Shown here one piece after another: positions 6,180-57,620 of a stretch of DNA of 64,000 nucleotides. A model generated the notes under the pieces. It ran no database searches. It worked only from the letters and a program-made list of their open reading frames with translations, and was not told where the DNA came from. Position 1 is the stretch's first letter; each line of letters begins with the position of its first letter. A program made the position numbers and the translations under genes. Origin of the DNA: the human T2T-CHM13v2.0 reference genome, Homo sapiens; NCBI RefSeq assembly GCF_009914755.1, contig NC_060933.1. One strand, given 5' to 3'.

Positions 6180-8610
6180 CCTTCCAACTTTTATTTTAGG
6201 TTCAGGGGGTACATGTGCAGGTTTGTTACATGGGTAAAATGTGTGTCAATGGGGTTTGGTGTACAGATTATGTAGTCATCCAGGTAGTGAGCATAGTATC
6301 TAACTGGGAGTTTTTTGATCCTCACTCTCCCCCACCCTCCACCCTCAATAGACCTTGTGTCTATTGTTCCTTTCTTTGTGTGGACTCAATGTTTAGCTCC
6401 CACTTATAAGTGAGAACATGCAGTGTTTGCTTGGTTTTCTGTTCCTGCATTAATTCGCTTAGAATAACAGTCTCCAGCTCCATTCATGTTGCTGCAAAAG
6501 GCATTATTTCATCCTATTTTATAGCTATGTAGTATTCCATGGTGTATGTGTGCTGCATTTTTTTTAATCCAGTCTACTGTTAACAGGCATCTAGGTTGAT
6601 TCCATGTCTTTGCTATTGTGAATAGTGCTATAATGAACATATGTGTGCATATGTCTATGACAGAATGATTTATATTCCTTTGGGTATATACCCAGTAATG
6701 GGATTGCTGGGTTGAATGGAAGTTCTGTTTTAAGTTATTTGAGAAATCTCCAAACTGCTTTCCACAGTGGCTGAACTAATTTACATTCTGAGGAAACTGG
6801 AGAGTTCCCTGACTCCCTTTGCAGGATGTGCAGCAGGGGTGTGGCTTGTCTATTTGGCTATCACGTGTGGTGTCAAACCCCTTTCCAGGTGGGAGGGCAT
6901 GCAGACAGGCAGGTGCAAAAGCCAGGGCAAGTGGCCATGGTAGTGTCTAGGGGTGGGAATGCCTGTGACTCCCACAGCCCAAGTTGGTGTGTGTTACAGT
7001 GTGCTCTTTTAGCTTTGCCATCCACAGACAGCTTAAGTGTTAACCAGCTCAGTGCCCTCTTGGTACCCAGGTCTTTGTCCAGCATCCAGAAAGAATCAAG
7101 TTGCACACAGACTTGAGGATGGTGAATATGGAGGTTTTATTGAGTGGTGGAGGTGGCCCCCAGCAGGATGGATGGGGAGCCGGAAAGGGGATGGAATGGG
7201 AAGATGATCTTTCCCTGGAGCTTTGCCATCCAGAGGCTGATCTCCTCTCCAATCACTGCCAGCCAAACTCCTCTTGGCATTCAGATGCTCCTTCTCTTCT
7301 TTCTGCCACATCATTCTGCCATTCTTCTGCTCTTCTGTTCATCTCCTCATCTGTTTGTCTGCTTCTGGAGCCTGGGGTCTGGGGTTTATATGGGTACAGG
7401 ACAGGAGGGCGTGGTGGGCCAAAAGGCAACTTTTGGGTGCAAAAGCAAGAATGCCCCATTTAGGGCCATGGGTTTCCAGGCTCGAGGGTGGGGACTTTGC
7501 CAGGGAACCACCCTCTTCTACCCAGTATTTCCTTGCCTCCTGTCTGTATCACCACCAGCAGTGTATAAGCATTCCTTTTTCTCCAGAAGCTCACTGCCAT
7601 CTGTTATGTTTTGACTTTTTAATAATAGCCATTCTGACCAGTGTGATATGGTATCTCATGGTTCTGATTTGCATTTTTCTAATGATTAGTGATGTTGAGT
7701 ATTTTTTCATATGCTTGTTTGCCACATGTAAGTCTTCTTTTGAAAAGTGTCTGTTCATGTTCTTTGCCCATTTTTAATGGGTTTATTTTTTGCTTGTTGA
7801 TTTAAATTCCTTATAGATGATGCATATTAGACCTTTGTCAGATGCGTAATTTGAAAATATTTTCTCCTATTCCATAGGTTGTTTGTTTACTCTGTTGATA
7901 GCTTCTTTTGCTGTGCTGAAGCTCTTTAGTTTAATTAGGTCCCACTTGTCAATTCTTGTTGCAATTGCTTTTGGAATCTTCATCATGAAATCTTTGCCAG
8001 CGTCTATGTCCAGAATGATATTTCCTAGGTTTTCTTCGAAGGTTTTTATAGTTTTAGGTCTTACATTTAAGTCCTTCATCCATCTTGAGTTGATTTTTGT
8101 ATATGGTGAAACAAACAGGTCCAGATTCAATCTTCTGCATATGGCTAATCAGTTATCCCAGCATAATTTATTGATTAGGGAGTCTTTTCCTCATTCTTGT
8201 TATTGTCAACTTTGTTGAAGGTCAGATAGTTGTAGGTGTGTGGTTATATTTCTGGATTCTCTAACCTGTTCTATTGGTCCATGTGTCTGCTTTTGTACCA
8301 GTGCCATGCTGTTTGGGCTACTATAGCCTTGTAATATATTTTAAAGTTGGGTAGTGTAATGCCTCCAGCTTGCTTCTTTTTGCTTAGAATTGCTTTGGCT
8401 GTTCAGGTTCTTTTTTGGTTTCATACGAATTTTAAAGGTTTTTTTCTAATTCTGTGAAAAGTGTCATTGGTAGTTTGGTAAGAGTAACATTGAATCTATA
8501 AATTGCTTTGGGCAGTATGACCGTTGTAAGACTATTGATTCTTCCAATCCATGAGTATCCATACTCACGTTTGTTTGTGTTGTCTGATTTCTGTTGGCAG
8601 TATTTCTTTA
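6180..8610 (-). mobile_element. L1PA15/16-like 3' portion, interrupted by an LTR
   Basis: TTTTATTTTAGGTTCAGGGGGTACATGTGCAGG 3' end; ORF2-derived ORF 7867-8130 ([18 protein letters not shown]); L1 reads through TTACATTC|CCACCAGCAG across the LTR. Confidence 0.92.
6789..7551 (-). mobile_element. ERV1 solo LTR, LTR1/LTR27/LTR28 group
   Basis: Reverse complement begins TGATACAGACAGGAGGCAAGGAAATACTGGGTAGAAGAGGG, contains CCCATATAAACCCC (TATA region) and ends near GGGAACTCTCCAGTTTC. Confidence 0.88.
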
Positions 8611-32132: not shown

Positions 32133-33971
32133 TAGTTTTGATTTTGAGCCCTGAGTAGAGACACAGCCATTATCTTATTGGTAGAGTTGGCTGGGAAGTT
32201 AGCTATGAATTAATAGCCTCAAATATTAAGCCTTACATAGAAAGACTTTAAAGAAAAGACTTACTAAATACCTTGGTATGATTAAATATTAAAACTAAAT
32301 ATAATCATAAAAGTGACTCTTGTAGAAGAAAATCAATTTAGCTAAATCTAAAGAGTGTTTAGGAATTGAGGACACTATTTGAAAAGGAGGCACTAGTAAA
32401 TTTAAGACAAAAACAACATGTATTTGACCTTCGAAATGCTGGCTTTATCAGCTGCTTACCATATGTACTTCACCAAGTCCAATCATAAGTGGCTTCCTAG
32501 GGTCAGAGTGGACACTATGGGGACATGAGTGTGTTATTCTCACCTTTGGCCAAAATGACAAACATTAATGATTTATCAAAAAATTTCTACCTTTAGAGTT
32601 TGGCTACAACCTCACCATCCCTCTCAACATGGAGTTCCAAGCAAGTCACTAGCAACTGATTATAATTAAATGTGAGTTAAGCCCCAAAGCCATTTTTGAT
32701 TTAATATTTCACATATATAATATATATATTCTTATTTTCAACATGCTTCAGTGTACTTCCAGAATAACTTTTAAAATATCTTAAGCTTTCATTTCTATAA
32801 GTAGAATAATACTCAAAGTTCCTGAATTTAAAAACACCAGGCAGGTATAGACTGTAAACCTAATATTTTGGAAATGCAGAGTGTAACTGAAGCCTGCAAA
32901 AGGAAGTATTACTAAAATTTATCAGAGATTTGATTTATGAGGGGTTACGCTGAGTCTACCCAGTTATTTTTCTGCTTGTTAAACAGCACTTAAACTAAAG
33001 AAGATTTGGGCTGATAGAATTAAGGAGCTTTTTCCCTTGTTATATTGTCAGTAATATTCATCAGACAAAATGTGAGAAACGTTTCTACATTATGGCTTGT
33101 GATCCAGGAAAATCAGGGGGCAGTACCTTCATTCTGAAGTCCCAGTAAATGATCTTCTTTGATCAAAAAAGTGAGCCAGACACTAAAATATTGTCACGGA
33201 AGAACTGAAGGCAGGGAGATGCTCAAATCCTCCCAAGTCTGGCATTCAGTGCACCACCTGAAAAGAAGTTATTCAAATACAAAGGAATTACCATGTGAAT
33301 GGTGTTTCCGCACAATTTCTGCATATGCTGCCTTGCATTTTTATCAAGATGACAAACATAAACCAGCGTGAGAAAGCAGGTGCCTTTTTCCACCATATCT
33401 TTTGAACATCAGTATTTCCCAGCAGTTAACTGCATGTGATAATGGCCAGAGCACAGAAACGTATTGATTTGGATCCAAACTCTTCACCCAGAAGCAGCTT
33501 TTTGTTGTATATTTTAAGCTTGGCGCTTTTGATCCAGATTCATTAGATGGCAGATGATTTAAATAAGAAGGCAACGAGGCTGATTGAGGGGAAACTTCGT
33601 AAGATGTTGAAGTCTCAAAGAATATTTCAGCTCAGAGGGATTTCTTTCGTGGAGCCAAATTCAGATCCCACCTACAGAGTTAAAGCCATTAATTATTAAC
33701 CACAGTATTACATATTAAAATTACAAGATATCAGGTTGACAGCACATTACAACGAGCCTTCAGATTGTGATTTCCCATCCTAATGATGATGATAAGATAG
33801 GACTGAATGGCAAATTGCTATTGCTTTCAGTTGAAAATTTGAAAGAGCTGTGCCCTGATCCCTCGTTACAGAGAACTGCTATTCATTCAGCAGCACTCCT
33901 AGCAGAAATAAACCCAGGGTCTAGTGCGGTGGCGGCAGAGATGTTAATTCACAGGACAGCAAGCAGAGAGA

Positions 33972-34300
33972 AGCTGCTAAATGGCACAGTGGGTTAATGA
34001 CGCACTACAGTGCTTCACCATGGGAGACATATGGGTCGAATTCTGGCATTGTTCACAAGTGAAAATTGGTTTACCAATCTTAGCTTGGTCCCTGGTGGAC
34101 AGTTATCCTTGTCCTAGCCCTCCTCAGATGTTGTCCTAATTTTCTGCACAGGAGAGGCTCAAGTCTGCAAGAGGAGGAAAGTTACTTATAAGAGTGAAAA
34201 TGGCTTAGCAGAGTTAGAAGAGTAAATGGGCCCAATATCTTCCTTCTTTTAATTCCGGTTGCTGCCAGTATCTCATTTTCACAAGCATGAAAATCCACTC
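33972..34300 (+). mobile_element. Ancient tRNA-derived SINE (AmnSINE2/LF-SINE-like)
   Basis: Pol III A box TGGCACAGTGG (33982-33992), B-box-like GGGTCGAATTC (34033-34043), then blocks GTGAAAATTGG...CCTGGTGGACAG, CTTAGCAGAG...AATGGGCC and TTTCACAAGCATGAAAATCCACT, colinear with the recalled LF-SINE consensus. Confidence 0.7.
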
Positions 34301-35204
34301 AGGGCCGCAAAAGAAAGGCCATAAACAAGGCCAATTTCCTGTCTGCTACAACTACATCCCCAAAGAGCTAAGCAGGCTTAGCACTAATTTATTAAAAAGA
34401 GGATACTTATCTGAAACAGGCCTTGCCCTCAGTAGAGAATCTTAGGACTACCAGCTTAAGAGCAGAATAGCTTAGTCAAAAACTTATACGCATTTTAAGA
34501 AATAGTGTAAGATATAAAATAATTAATAGGATTCTATAACTCTTCTTATGCACATGTTCTTAATAGCAAGAGAATGTGTGGAATACTTTTTATAATGTAT
34601 TTGTGTATTTTACAGTACCTTTTTTTACGTTAAATAAAAGCCTTTCCTTTAACAGAAAGACATTCACTTATCTACTCTCCTATGTGAAAAACTAGTCACT
34701 GGTAATAAACATTTAAAAACTGCAAATGAAATAAAATGATGAGAGACAATGTTTAATAAAAACTTTAAAGAACTAAAATGAGAAATAAAAGGAAATTACA
34801 GAAGTGAATAACACTATCTTATTTTCTAATTCAAAAAATAACAAAGGCTATGGTGACAGAGACTAAAGCGTTGAGAGATTAATGAAATGAAAGATTTCAG
34901 AAAGTAGGAAGAAACAGCTATGGCCTATAAAAAGGAAAGAAGATTTAATAATTAATAAAAATTAAAGACAAATATCTACAAAAGATTTTTGAAAGTGACA
35001 AAGAAAAAATAAAAAACAAAATGCTGAAATAATTAGTTCTTGTGAATTTCAGGCTATTCAGATATTTTCCATCTCTACAATCATTATTTTCTGGGATTAT
35101 TTAATAGATTCTCTCATTAATTCTGCCTTCAATCACTCATTCCTTCTCATCTATCTTTTTTTAACTTTTAATTGGTTTTGAGGATAGCTAATATTCATTA
35201 TTAA

Positions 35205-35707
35205 CTCTTTTCCCGTTTAGGAAAAAAAAAAAGTACAGCTCGTTGCCAGTGATCATTTAATTTTACATAAACACACTCTTTGAGGCTGAAGCAAATCTGA
35301 CTGAGTTTCAATGTAAAACTAAAATATAAAAACTGTTGTTTTTGGAGTTATTTCTAAACAGAACAAACATCAGAATCATCAGAATCGTCTAGTTTGGAAA
35401 TATCGAGTTCATCAAATTCAGCCAACAATTGTTTGAGAATGATGTTAATATCACACATAGGAATGCTACATTTTCTAGGATTTGACGTTATCATCCCTCG
35501 AGAATTACTATATTTTGTAAGTGGAAATACGACTACTAAAAACAGAATACTGTAAATAGAATGATGTCTTTTGTTTCCAAAGTTGACATACTAGAGTGAT
35601 GTGAAAATAATTATAAAAGCCAGATATTTTGTGGCAAAGTTCTCAGGGTAAATGATGCAGCCACAAGCACTGTTGGTGGGTATTCTTGGGGCAAAAAGGG
35701 AAAAAGG
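35205..35707 (-). mobile_element. MER75 (piggyBac non-autonomous element), essentially full length
   Basis: TTAA target sites at 35201-35204 and 35708-35711; TIRs CTCTTTTCCCGTTT / AAAAAGGGAAAAAGG. Confidence 0.92.
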
Positions 35708-37008
35708 TTAAAAATGTGTACTCAGTAGCCAAACACTTTGGCAGAGGAATCAAACAGAAAGGGAGAGATTTATAAACATCACATTAAAGTAAAAAACGAG
35801 AGAAAAACTCAAATGCAAACGCATTTGTTTAAACAAATAATTTACTTATTTCACAACTCATGATCCTTAAAGATGGTAGAGGCATCCAGTCCACATTTCC
35901 CTTCTTTTGGAAATCAGTCTCATCCTCTCTAAAAATAGTCAGCTTCATGAAGCTAACGTCATCCCTTATTTACTTCCAACAAGACTCATTTGTTCATGGT
36001 CTGTTTGTCTTTCAATTCCCATTCCTCTTCCTATACCCACAGCTGATTTTCAAAATCCTCTTCTTACCTGTGTTTTGTTCTCTGTTTACATTGCCTCCAC
36101 TCTCCTGGCCTGCTCAAATCTAATTTGTCTCTATTTCCTTCCTATAAAGCTTTCATTGATACCTTTGGTCCATAGCAATCTCCTCTTCCCCTAACAATAA
36201 ATGACTGCTCCTCATTAGGAATTAGAAAGCAGCCAAATCCCTGACTTGGCATTTCCTATTTGATTTTATATGACTATGAATTTTTCAGGAGTCTTTTTCT
36301 AGTTTCTCCAAACAGATTTTAAGATTATTAAAACATGACTTTGTACATACAAGTTATTTTTCTTAAATATAGAAGTATCTGTGTGTATGTATTCCTCTTC
36401 TGACTTTACGTATTTATTTTGATATTTCAAAATACCTAACACTGCTTTACTCAGAGGAGTAGCTTAATAAATATGTTTGAATGAATGCCCACCATAAAAT
36501 AATTACAACTTATTTTTCTCTGTTAACAGATTATCCTCCCCAATTCTAATCAGCTATTTAAAACCTTCGTAAAATTTAAATGGAACACAAAGGAGAATCA
36601 TTTAATTCTTAGCTATTAAGGTGATAATGACAGATTTTGAAAGTAATGAGACAGCATTTTGATTTTAAAATACTCCATTTAATACTTTTAAAATTATGAT
36701 ATGATTCATGTGCAATTTTGGATACTTTTAAAATAAATTGTGACAAATTTGAAATTCTTTAAAATCCTTTAAGAACTTTCCTACATAGAGCATTAGATAA
36801 GGCCAGTTTTTATTTAATTTTAGGGAAAGTAGCACGTTCAATTAGAAATATTTATGTATAAAAGAACTTGCACTGCCAATTTGACTAAATATACCTAAAA
36901 TTTAAATTACTACATTGAGACTTTAAGAACCTGTAGCTCTGTCAGTGGGACTGTGGTCCACCTGCTTTCTTCTGGTACAAACGATTTTGAATAGAAAGTA
37001 ACTACGGA

Positions 37009-49620: not shown

Positions 49621-49722
49621 AATAAGTGTGTGAACTAAAAGTTTGTACCACCTGGGGCTCATACCCAGGTGGAGTGGAGTGGTCCTGTATTATGCTTGCT
49701 ATGTGAGAAAAATCAAGGGACA

Positions 49723-49723
49723 A

Positions 49724-49786
<63 letters not shown>

Positions 49787-50162
49787 CGTGTATATGTGTA
49801 TATATGTACGTGTATATGTATATATATACGTGTATATATACGTGTATATGTGTATATATACATGTATATATGTATATATATAGTGTATATATATACGTGT
49901 ATATATGTATATATATACGTGTATATATGTGTATATATACGTGTATATATGTGTATATATACGTGTATATATGTGTATATATGTGTATATATACGTGTAT
50001 ATATACGTATATATACACGTATGTATATATACGTATATATACACGTATGTATATATACGTGTATATATACACGTATGTATATATACGTGTATATACACGT
50101 ATGTATATATACGTGTATATATACGTATATATACGTGTATAAACACGTATATCTACACACAC
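49723..50162. repeat. Compound (TA)n(TG)n plus TATATACGTG-type minisatellite
   Basis: Directly visible; produces the overlapping Y/I/V/T-rich artefact ORFs. Confidence 0.97.
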
Positions 50163-55834: not shown

Positions 55835-57134
55835 ATCAGAGATGAAAAAAAAAGTTTCTCTGGATAAAGGCAGTCTTCTTAGAATGAAATAAAAACAAAA
55901 TATGTCTGCTTTTGTGCAGGTGGTTGCAGAACAGGTACACTCTCCTTCGATGTGGGAGTACTTATTCATAAAGCAAGTAGTCCCAGAAAGACCAAATGAT
56001 ACTAAACCAATCCAAATGAACAGAGATGTGTCTTTTGCCACAGATGACTTCACTAGGACATCTAGTCTATCAAGGGTAACATGAACAAATTATGCCAGGT
56101 ATGTTTGAGTAGTAAGTCTGATTATTGCATTTGCAGTCTCTAGTTTGCCATATAATATTTCTATTCTATTAAGCAAGACACATACCATTTCTGTTCTTTA
56201 ATCTCCTTGTTGATAAAATGAAAAAAAATTCTTTTATTTTTAGGAGAAATATTAGATCTGCAAATTAAGTTAGGAACAAATAGAATTTATTGTCATTATC
56301 ATCAATGTTGCATTTTTAGTGCTTTAGCTATTTTCTATCTAGATCATTAGCACTTTTGGAACAATATTCTGGAATAAATAGCCCTCCTCTGTGCTTCCTT
56401 AATGCCTTTATTCAAGTCTTTTCTTTCACTTATGACAATTTAAGGAACTTTTTGTGTGTCTATTTCTCTCAATATACTAAAAGCTCCCAAAGCTGAATCT
56501 ACATCGTACTTACCCTGAATCTCCAGCACTTACTACCTGGCAAATGATATACTTCCAAAATGTGATATGCTGAAACAAATTACTGTATGTGTCTTTCTCA
56601 CACGGCACAATGCTTTGTATGTAGTAGGTGTAAGTTGCTTTTCTTATTGACTAATTAAACTAGAAAACATTCATCACCCCCAGATTATCTTAGTTTCTTC
56701 TTGCTCTAGATCAGTTTATTGACATATGTAGTATACATATGTCAATAAACATATATATACTACATATACATATGTTTTTTTGTTTTTGCAAAACAAAAAA
56801 GCAAAACAACTTTTTTTACAGCGAATCAAGCACTTTGAAAACAACGAGAAAATTATTTGCCTATATAACTGTGGCACATAATTACAAACAATTATAAAAT
56901 ATCCCAAATGGCATGCTAATATATAAAAGAAAGTCAATACCTAGACGTAGTTCAAACTCATGGCCAATATTTAGTTTATGAGAATATAAAAGTTGTACCA
57001 TAAACTCTTTGCTGAGAGTTTGCATCTTTGAATTAGACAAAGACAATAAATTACAAAATATAACAAGAATCCCATTCTCTAGCTCCTTTCTTATAACTCT
57101 GATCACCTCATCAAATCACACCCTTCACCTTACT

Positions 57135-57620
57135 GTTAGAAAACCTGAGAATAGACATAGTAATGCCTGTACAAAGCCCTAAATTTCACTTTGGTTTGAA
57201 GAAGTAACAAGGAGCAACTTCTGCATAGGGGAAGGTAGTCAACTTCAGCCCCATCTAGCCTTCCATGTGGGACAGGAAAATACCAAACTCCATCCCCATC
57301 TAATCCTTCTTGTCTCACCTAAGGTGAACCACCTGTGAAGATCACAGCCCAGGGCACAGGCTCACTAAAAGACTGAGACTAAATCATACAACTATAGAAT
57401 GTTTCTCCTCACCCACATCTTATCAACGTATTACTTAGAGACCTAAGTAACTCACTTCCTTTTGTGCAGTACATCATATCAAGCTTTCAACAACAACAAA
57501 AATTATAAGGTATACTAAAAGGCAAAAAATAAATAAAAAAATAAATAAAACCCACAGTTGGAAGCAAGCAAGCAAACATTAGAACCAGACTCGAATATGG
57601 CAGGGATGTTAGAATTATCT
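57135..57620 (+). mobile_element. L1MD/MC-type 5'UTR fragment
   Basis: CAGGCTCACTAAAAGACTGAGAC and AGAACCAGACTCGAATATGGCAGGGATGTTAGAATTATC; same family as the antisense 17.8-18.3 kb segment. Confidence 0.7.

What the first reader, a model, noticed from the sequence alone, without database searches (positions are those of the whole stretch)
33972..34300. Near full-length ancient amniote SINE (AmnSINE2/LF-SINE-like), candidate exapted element
Seen: a perfect A box (TGGCACAGTGG), a two-mismatch B box (GGGTCGAATTC) at tRNA-like spacing, and three downstream blocks colinear with my recollection of LF-SINE (GTGAAATGAG...CCTAGTGGACAGGTGTCC; CTCAGCAGAGAGG...TGAATGGGCC; CTTTCACAAGCACTAAATTCACT). The segment right after the tRNA head seems absent, which fits AmnSINE2 better. 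Knowledge: these families predate the mammalian radiation, and surviving copies are often constrained (an LF-SINE enhancer of ISL1; AmnSINE1 enhancers near FGF8 and SATB2). Inference: survival from head to tail suggests purifying selection.
Basis: partly seen in the sequence, partly recalled or inferred. Interest (0 to 1): 0.7.

Follow-up and report, generated by a model that had tools for sequence, protein, structure and literature searches.

The report
Decayed LF-SINE relic near TLE1
This 330-base stretch is a worn, internally shortened copy of LF-SINE, a very old jumping-DNA family, lying in a gene desert between two TLE-family genes; it likely survives in part as regulatory DNA and hosts an exon of a predicted non-coding RNA, but neither conservation nor activity is shown.

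Summary
The feature is real. Window 33972-34301 (+) has an exact A box and a two-mismatch B box. It aligns head to tail to a profile built from 46 other human LF-SINE copies: 64.9 bits, against a maximum of 44.3 in 1263 background tiles and 37.0 in 300 shuffles. It is not a MIR. It lacks about 41 nt after the head and has no recognisable uc.338 core; none of the 46 copies shares the 5' loss and no short sibling was found, in low-power searches. 'Near full-length, therefore constrained' is weak: 4 of 46 copies also span head to tail, and this copy is 65% identical to the profile, no better than nearby MIRs (median 67%). Extra observation: the middle exon of predicted lncRNA LOC107987085 lies antisense inside the relic, with a donor that the SINE itself likely supplied. 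Conservation across species and enhancer activity could not be tested. Verdict: new member of a known kind, modest interest.

The parts
33972..34301 (+). Whole LF-SINE relic, head to tail, about 120 nt shorter than the 451-column profile
   Evidence: model 6-447 aligned, 158 of 242 columns identical, 64.9 bits; the 5' start is extrapolated by five bases
33977..34076 (+). tRNA-derived head plus following LF-SINE segment (model 6-106)
   Evidence: 63 of 97 identical, 30.4 bits, 0 of 1000 shuffles; scores 30.4 against the LF head and 19.4 against the MIR head; 26 of 2000 when boxes are fixed and the spacer is shuffled
33982..33992 (+). Pol III A box, no mismatch to the consensus used
   Evidence: none of the 15 listed LF-SINE heads has a mismatch-free A box
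34033..34043 (+). Pol III B box with two mismatches, at positions normally invariant (recalled), so likely weak or dead
   Evidence: 3 of 15 listed heads also have 2 mismatches, none fewer
34078..34163 (+). LF-SINE body block (model 148-242), joined to the head across a loss of about 41 nt
   Evidence: 52 of 86 identical; block score 27.6 bits, 0 of 1000 shuffles; nhmmer E 0.006 in the 64 kb
34164..34253 (+). Middle that does not align reliably; holds one short LF-like block (about 34204-34232) and no recognisable uc.338 core
   Evidence: short block 12 of 1000 shuffles, core 671 of 1000; 14 of 2000 and 1711 of 2000
34254..34301 (+). LF-SINE 3' tail (model 400-447)
   Evidence: 33 of 46 identical, 24.7 bits, 0 of 1000 shuffles
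34075..34164 (-). Middle exon (90 nt) of predicted lncRNA LOC107987085, antisense and wholly inside the relic; AG acceptor with pyrimidine tract in the unaligned middle, GT donor in the LF-homologous head segment
   Evidence: hub annotation; (splice ends); 12 of 20 LF-SINE copies covering that column also have GT on the antisense strand

Best explanation
The stretch is a decayed LF-SINE copy with its tRNA-like head and its tail, about 120 bases shorter than the family profile, lying between two TLE-family genes; it is likely dead as a retroposon and likely kept in part as distal regulatory DNA for TLE1 or TLE4. Steps: (1) shown: homology to human LF-SINE copies in head, first body block and tail (about 0.9). 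(2) Inferred: it inserted as a normal LF-SINE and lost the two segments in place, rather than belonging to a short subfamily (about 0.75). (3) Inferred: Pol III transcription is lost, because the B box is broken and three T4 runs lie inside (about 0.8). (4) Inferred: decay has been slower than neutral, so parts are likely under mild constraint, most plausibly as binding sites of a long-range enhancer as in the ISL1 copy (constraint about 0.55, real enhancer activity about 0.3). (5) Inferred: a Pol II transcript crossing the desert splices in an antisense exon using a donor that the SINE carried ready-made and an acceptor in the altered middle; this exon is likely incidental.
For: Homology: (top three nhmmer hits in the 64 kb, one tied with an unrelated hit at E 2.5, lie in the element, colinear, same strand), and 84 (54.6 bits, 0 of 1263 tiles, after dropping the 11 copies reached through a motif-guided search). 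uc_338 overlaps the LFSINE_Vert 3' end (PMC4233971). Copy-specific losses: every copy with both flanks covers at least 27 of the 41 columns that the element lacks; sibling searches returned only the element. Slower decay: simulation puts the score at about 0.5-0.7 substitutions per site; at 0.8, 0.9 and 1.0 only 5%, 1% and 0% of 150 runs fell in 55-75 bits; MIR copies sit near 0.45 and MIR is the younger family (recalled). For ancient families the surviving copies are mostly the selected ones (PMC3428314); LFSINE_Vert is enriched in DNase peaks in over 30% of epigenomes (PMC6904449). Place: TLE_N exons at C9:91.73 Mb and 93.84 Mb; tested TLE1 element Hs240 lies in the same desert. Exon.
Against: Identity is only 65%, at the low end of LF-SINE copies (7 of 46 as low) and within the MIR range (10 of 29 as low). 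Large losses are what neutral decay gives. Plain nhmmer gives no single hit better than E 0.006-0.09 in 64 kb; the strong score needs an alignment that allows jumps. The element was not among the 28 uc_338 hits. The age contrast with MIR is recalled and copies are seen only if they score well, so the slower-decay argument is soft. The element holds few notable factor motifs and the head has no stable fold (z 0.03). The nearest coding promoters are about 0.81 and 1.30 Mb away. No cross-species or chromatin data were available. The copy sample is biased to copies that carry the queried segments.
Confidence: 0.5

Rival explanations
1. The same LF-SINE relic, but a neutral fossil: it is simply in the still-recognisable tail of decaying copies, and the antisense exon is splicing noise in low-level desert transcription.
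For: 65% identity, like MIR copies; two large losses; broken B box; lncRNA is a predicted model with no ATG frame of note, no poly(A) signal seen and a 3' end inside a donor-like site, and no paper names it. Over 95% of ancient TE insertions evolve neutrally (PMC3649676).
Against: Simulated divergence of 0.8 or more rarely gives this score; ancient families survive mostly as selected copies; the A box is better kept than in any of 15 listed heads.
Confidence: 0.33
2. A member of a separate short SINE family related to LF-SINE, either AmnSINE2 as the reader preferred or an undescribed subfamily that spread with the two losses already in place.
For: Both ends are kept while two internal pieces are gone; the 56-90 nt middle is unassigned; none of 46 sampled copies has this layout, which a distinct family would also explain.
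Against: AmnSINE2 is filed under Deu and vertebrate DeuSINEs share a 330-bp domain for which there is no room; sibling searches found only the element or unrelated repeats. These searches are weak: the matching long-gap control found 1 true LF-SINE among 7 hits.
Confidence: 0.08
3. The relic is kept for an RNA- or Pol III-related role: either the antisense exon of LOC107987085 is the selected unit, or the A and B boxes bind TFIIIC as a chromatin boundary.
For: Exon with canonical AG/GT ends, pyrimidine tract and a donor shared with 12 of 20 copies; LF-SINE has supplied exons 19 times in tetrapods (PMC9148063); exact A box and a CpG kept in the B box.
Against: Predicted model only; B box has two mismatches and 3 of 15 other heads do as well; head and tail outside the exon are kept as well as the exon block.
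Confidence: 0.07
4. Chance: a tRNA-like box pair followed by unrelated sequence that a flexible alignment strings together.
For: Single blocks are weak in nhmmer; block windows for the per-block tests were chosen after seeing the alignment.
Against: Whole-element score exceeds all 1263 tiles by 20 bits with penalties fixed; holds with reduced and Rfam-only profiles.
Confidence: 0.02

Closest known systems
LF-SINE (LFSINE_Vert, SINE2/tRNA; Rfam uc_338 RF02271 covers its 3' part)
   Same: tRNA-like head with 40-nt box spacing, first body block and 3' tail, colinear, 65% identity to a profile of 46 human copies
   Different: About 41 nt missing after the head, uc.338 core not recognisable, 56-90 nt unassigned middle; more diverged than 39 of 46 sampled copies
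LF-SINE enhancer of ISL1 (Bejerano 2006, seen only through reviews PMC9148063, PMC3649676, PMC8143547)
   Same: Same family, non-coding, far from a developmental regulator gene
   Different: That copy is conserved in mammals, chicken and frog and was tested in mice; here neither was testable
LF-SINE-derived exons such as the one in PCBP2
   Same: Exon formed inside an LF-SINE copy; the uc_338 model runs antisense to the SINE, as does this exon
   Different: This exon is in a predicted lncRNA, uses the 5' half of the SINE, and the relic lacks the core that uc_338 models
AmnSINE2 and AmnSINE1 (Deu family)
   Same: Ancient amniote SINEs, often in open chromatin
   Different: Defined by the Deu domain, which was not seen; AmnSINE1 has a 5S head
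MIR (CORE-SINE)
   Same: tRNA-derived head; similar percent decay
   Different: No nhmmer hit at E 10 to a MIR profile of 28-29 copies; 25.8 bits against 64.9 for LF-SINE

Membership tests
LF-SINE (LFSINE_Vert) | tRNA-derived head with A and B boxes, LF-type sequence | tested here: met
   63 of 97 identical, 0 of 1000 shuffles, better than the MIR head
LF-SINE (LFSINE_Vert) | 5' body block (model about 105-245) | tested here: met
   model 148-242 present (52 of 86); model 107-147 missing
LF-SINE (LFSINE_Vert) | uc.338 core (model about 256-399) | tested here: not met
   no significant match; read as a loss in this copy. Some other copies also cover little or none of it, for example L034 and L072, so it is common but not required
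LF-SINE (LFSINE_Vert) | 3' tail | tested here: met
   33 of 46 identical, 0 of 1000 shuffles
LF-SINE (LFSINE_Vert) | Hit to the curated Dfam/Repbase model over threshold | not testable with these tools
   no Dfam library; a profile of human copies reached from Rfam uc_338 stood in
AmnSINE2 | Deu domain (family Deu; 330 bp in vertebrates, 70-120 bp minimal core) | tested here: inconclusive
   family label; sizes; no room for 330 bp, longest unassigned stretch 56-90 nt; bivalve core motifs miss by 5 of 15 and 3 of 11, but they also found no human Deu copy, so that test had no positive control. Leans not met
AmnSINE2 | Match to the AmnSINE2 consensus | not testable with these tools
   no consensus in the two papers that name it (passages); SINEBase supplements not readable
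MIR / CORE-SINE | CORE domain and L2-type tail | tested here: not met
MamSINE1 | Match to MamSINE1 consensus, RTE-type tail (recalled) | not tested
   no copies or model obtained
tRNA gene or pseudogene | Cloverleaf detectable by ARAGORN or Rfam tRNA | tested here: not met
Exapted TE enhancer | Conservation above neutral across mammals or amniotes | not testable with these tools
   no vertebrate genomes; only the indirect divergence estimate
Exapted TE enhancer | Open chromatin or reporter activity | not testable with these tools
   no chromatin data; Hs240 and Hs752 lie elsewhere

The most novel reading that the evidence does not exclude
The relic is an exapted long-range enhancer of TLE1 or TLE4 that also gave a desert lncRNA its middle exon through a built-in antisense donor, and its layout (head and tail kept, two inner pieces gone) marks an undescribed short LF-SINE subfamily that spread in early amniotes.
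Probability: 0.04. Interest if true: 0.6.

Novelty: new member of a known kind. Interest (0 to 1): 0.27.

Why it matters
LF-SINE is the textbook case of jumping DNA turned into enhancers and exons. One more copy is ordinary: 46 others turned up in a few searches. It would matter if it proved to be a constrained enhancer of the Groucho/TLE co-repressors, or if its layout marked a second, shorter LF-SINE family. It also shows a ready-made antisense splice donor in the LF-SINE 5' half (12 of 20 copies), which predicts where other copies can be exonised.

Tried and rejected
tRNA gene or known RNA family: ARAGORN found none in 64 kb; Rfam gave only chance-level hits; no stable fold of the head. Coding: 6 ATG frames of 34-57 aa overlap 33100-34500, nothing notable; the spliced lncRNA has stops in all three frames. 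Pairwise alignment to single LF-SINE copies was not significant. The head-only LF profile gave no nhmmer hit at E 5; the head showed only in the full profile and the jump alignment. Direct DNA searches with the element found only itself. Patterns were ill-formed and could not match the element, so they say nothing. One search gave the element and one chance-level locus (control 1). One search gave 2 LF-SINE copies among 7 hits; one search gave 0 among 18. Searches hit mostly another repeat, Tigger-like by recall. A model of the element itself could not be run over the genome, which leaves the sibling question open. The MIR identities printed were wrong (column offset) and were redone. No target-site duplication. 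The competing tiles at 57100-57450 and 6700-7100 look like L1 and LTR sequence by eye (names recalled). The donor tRNA species was not determined. Not in print, as far as searched: LOC107987085 and LF-SINE together with TLE gave 0 papers in the open library; subscription papers and Bejerano 2006 were not searchable.

Full report
Observation. The A box (33982-33992, exact) and B box (34033-34043, two mismatches, 40 nt later) are present; of 2 exact A-box matches in the window only this one has such a B box. The box consensus used was recalled. There is no tRNA gene, no Rfam match of note and no stable fold. A DNA search of the genome with the element finds only itself.

Building a reference from real copies. 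[quoted passage not shown] It gave 28 human loci; the element was not among them. A motif search added L034 and L035 (2 of 7 hits). DNA searches with L035 and then L065 added 9 and 7 further copies, which carry the 5' part and head. The two sets are linked: 7 of the 18 added copies hit the Rfam-only profile at E 0.01 and 11 do not, and 5 Rfam hits match the head profile. The full profile has 451 columns from 46 copies.

Test of homology. With only the 28 Rfam copies and without the head, the 300 nt after the B box scored 41.3 bits in a local alignment that allows long jumps; shuffles gave 20.0 +- 3.6 (0 of 300 reached it) and 2 of 2520 window tiles reached it. With the full profile and the same penalties the element scored 64.9 bits; shuffles 23.1 +- 4.1, maximum 37.0; tiles maximum 44.3, 0 of 1263; fitted tail probability about 1e-5 per tile. 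After dropping the 11 copies reached through the motif-guided route, 54.6 bits, again 0 of 1263 tiles (the seed of that rebuild still came from all copies). Plain nhmmer is much weaker: best pieces at E 0.006 and 0.064 with the body profile and 0.094, 0.61 and 2.5 with the full one, colinear on the + strand. A MIR profile built the same way gives no nhmmer hit and 25.8 bits, reached by 14 of 300 shuffles.

Anatomy. Model 6-106 = 33977-34076 (63 of 97 identical); model 148-242 = 34078-34163 (52 of 86); model 243-255 = 34220-34232 (10 of 13); model 400-447 = 34254-34301 (33 of 46). Head, first block and tail each beat 1000 of 1000 shuffles; the short block was reached by 12 and the core by 671 of 1000. 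These block windows were chosen after the alignment was seen. About 41 nt are missing after the head; whether the loss lies before or after 34059-34076 cannot be told (247 and 301 of 2000). The middle, 34164-34253, is 90 nt where the model has about 158 and does not align reliably. No target-site duplication was found.

Which family. All aligned parts are LF-SINE. AmnSINE2 is labelled family Deu in a supplement row of PMC6904449; vertebrate DeuSINEs share a 330-bp domain, with 70-120 bp cores in invertebrates (PMC4824008, passages). There is no room for the long form. The motif test for the core lacked a positive control, and no AmnSINE2 model could be run, so exclusion is indirect. A short LF-SINE subfamily is not excluded: none of 46 copies shares the 5' loss (least coverage 27 of 41 columns among copies with both flanks), and junction searches found only the element or unrelated repeats, but the sample is biased and the searches are weak (1 true copy in 7 hits).

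Constraint. No other vertebrate genome was available. Four of 46 copies also span head to tail. The element is 65% identical to the profile (158 of 242); leave-one-out medians are 70% for LF-SINE copies (7 of 46 at or below 65.3%) and 67% for MIR copies (10 of 29). The element's figure comes from the jump alignment and the others from nhmmer alignments, so the comparison is rough. Simulated decay with the same losses fits about 0.5-0.7 substitutions per site and rarely 0.8 or more; 67% identity corresponds to about 0.45. If LF-SINE stopped moving in our lineage about twice as long ago as MIR (recalled, not checked), neutral decay would give about 0.9, so decay was probably slowed. Detection bias and unknown early rates weaken this. 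Family-level priors point both ways: survivors of ancient families are mostly selected copies (PMC3428314, section 8) and LFSINE_Vert is enriched in DNase peaks (PMC6904449, passage), yet over 95% of ancient insertions are neutral (PMC3649676, passages).

Setting. TLE_N exons lie at C9:91.73 Mb (+) and 93.80-93.84 Mb (-). The names TLE4 and TLE1 are recalled, and their spacing agrees with the coordinates in a supplement of PMC3541358. The element is about 1.30 Mb and 0.81 Mb from their 5' ends. The tested element Hs240 lies about 230 kb nearer TLE1 by my rough offset, and Hs752 beyond TLE1; neither is this element.

The exon. The hub's predicted exon 34075-34164 (-) sits inside the relic, with a pyrimidine tract and AG before it and GT after it. 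The donor falls in the LF-homologous head segment; 12 of 20 copies that cover this column have GT on the antisense strand, so the SINE likely carried it. The acceptor lies in the unaligned middle. LF-SINE gave 19 coding exons in tetrapods (PMC9148063, passages). The lncRNA is a predicted model, has stops in all frames, ends one base into a donor-like site without a poly(A) signal in the 90 nt viewed, and is named in no paper searched.

Pol III. The A box is better kept than in any of 15 listed heads, but the B box is no better than the best three, and T4 runs start at 34140, 34247 and 34276. A full-length Pol III transcript is unlikely.

Papers seen. Passages only: PMC5753468, PMC8143547, PMC3531059, PMC10257727, PMC11444175, PMC3649676, PMC11353194, PMC4233971, PMC9148063. 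Passages plus supplement rows or part: PMC6904449, PMC3541358, PMC4824008 (part 1 of 4). Passages plus one section: PMC3428314. Bejerano 2006 and the AmnSINE papers of 2006 and 2009: not seen. Supplements of PMC3531059 (SINE consensus alignments) and PMC3428314 (possible lists of exapted elements) could not be read and may bear on family and constraint.

Verdict. A real, decayed LF-SINE copy with two internal losses; family about 0.9, some constraint about 0.55, enhancer activity about 0.3. New member of a known kind; interest 0.27.

Noticed in passing
window 33126 (-): The predicted 3' end of LOC107987085 falls one base into a donor-like site and no poly(A) signal is seen nearby; the model is probably cut short and the transcript may splice on towards TLE4.
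   Followed up: partly
window 33001-34500: Unmasked stretch upstream of and over the relic has CpG observed/expected 0.31-0.32 against 0.18 for the window, with several homeodomain-type motifs at 33440-33790; it may be a larger conserved element that the relic borders. 34501-36000 is as high, so the signal is weak.
   Followed up: no
L065 (G000:C10:8017676-8017836) and L073 (G000:C10:8323605-8323695): Two LF-SINE copies with heads about 306 kb apart on chromosome 10, in the GATA3 region by recall; L065 has one of the best-kept heads (80% identity).
   Followed up: no
L013, L019, L061, L066: Four LF-SINE copies that span head to tail with 381-397 aligned columns; better candidates than this element for 'near full-length'.
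   Followed up: partly
L025 (G000:C9:87173264-87173431): Another LF-SINE copy on chromosome 9, about 5.9 Mb before the window.
   Followed up: no
window 49717-50143: A TA/TG/CG-rich microsatellite explains the CpG peak of the window; an L1-like 3' end lies just before it (name recalled).
   Followed up: yes
window 34058-34066 and 34193-34201: A 9-base word occurs twice inside the relic, 135 nt apart; it may mark an old internal duplication that made the unaligned middle and the exon's acceptor.
   Followed up: partly
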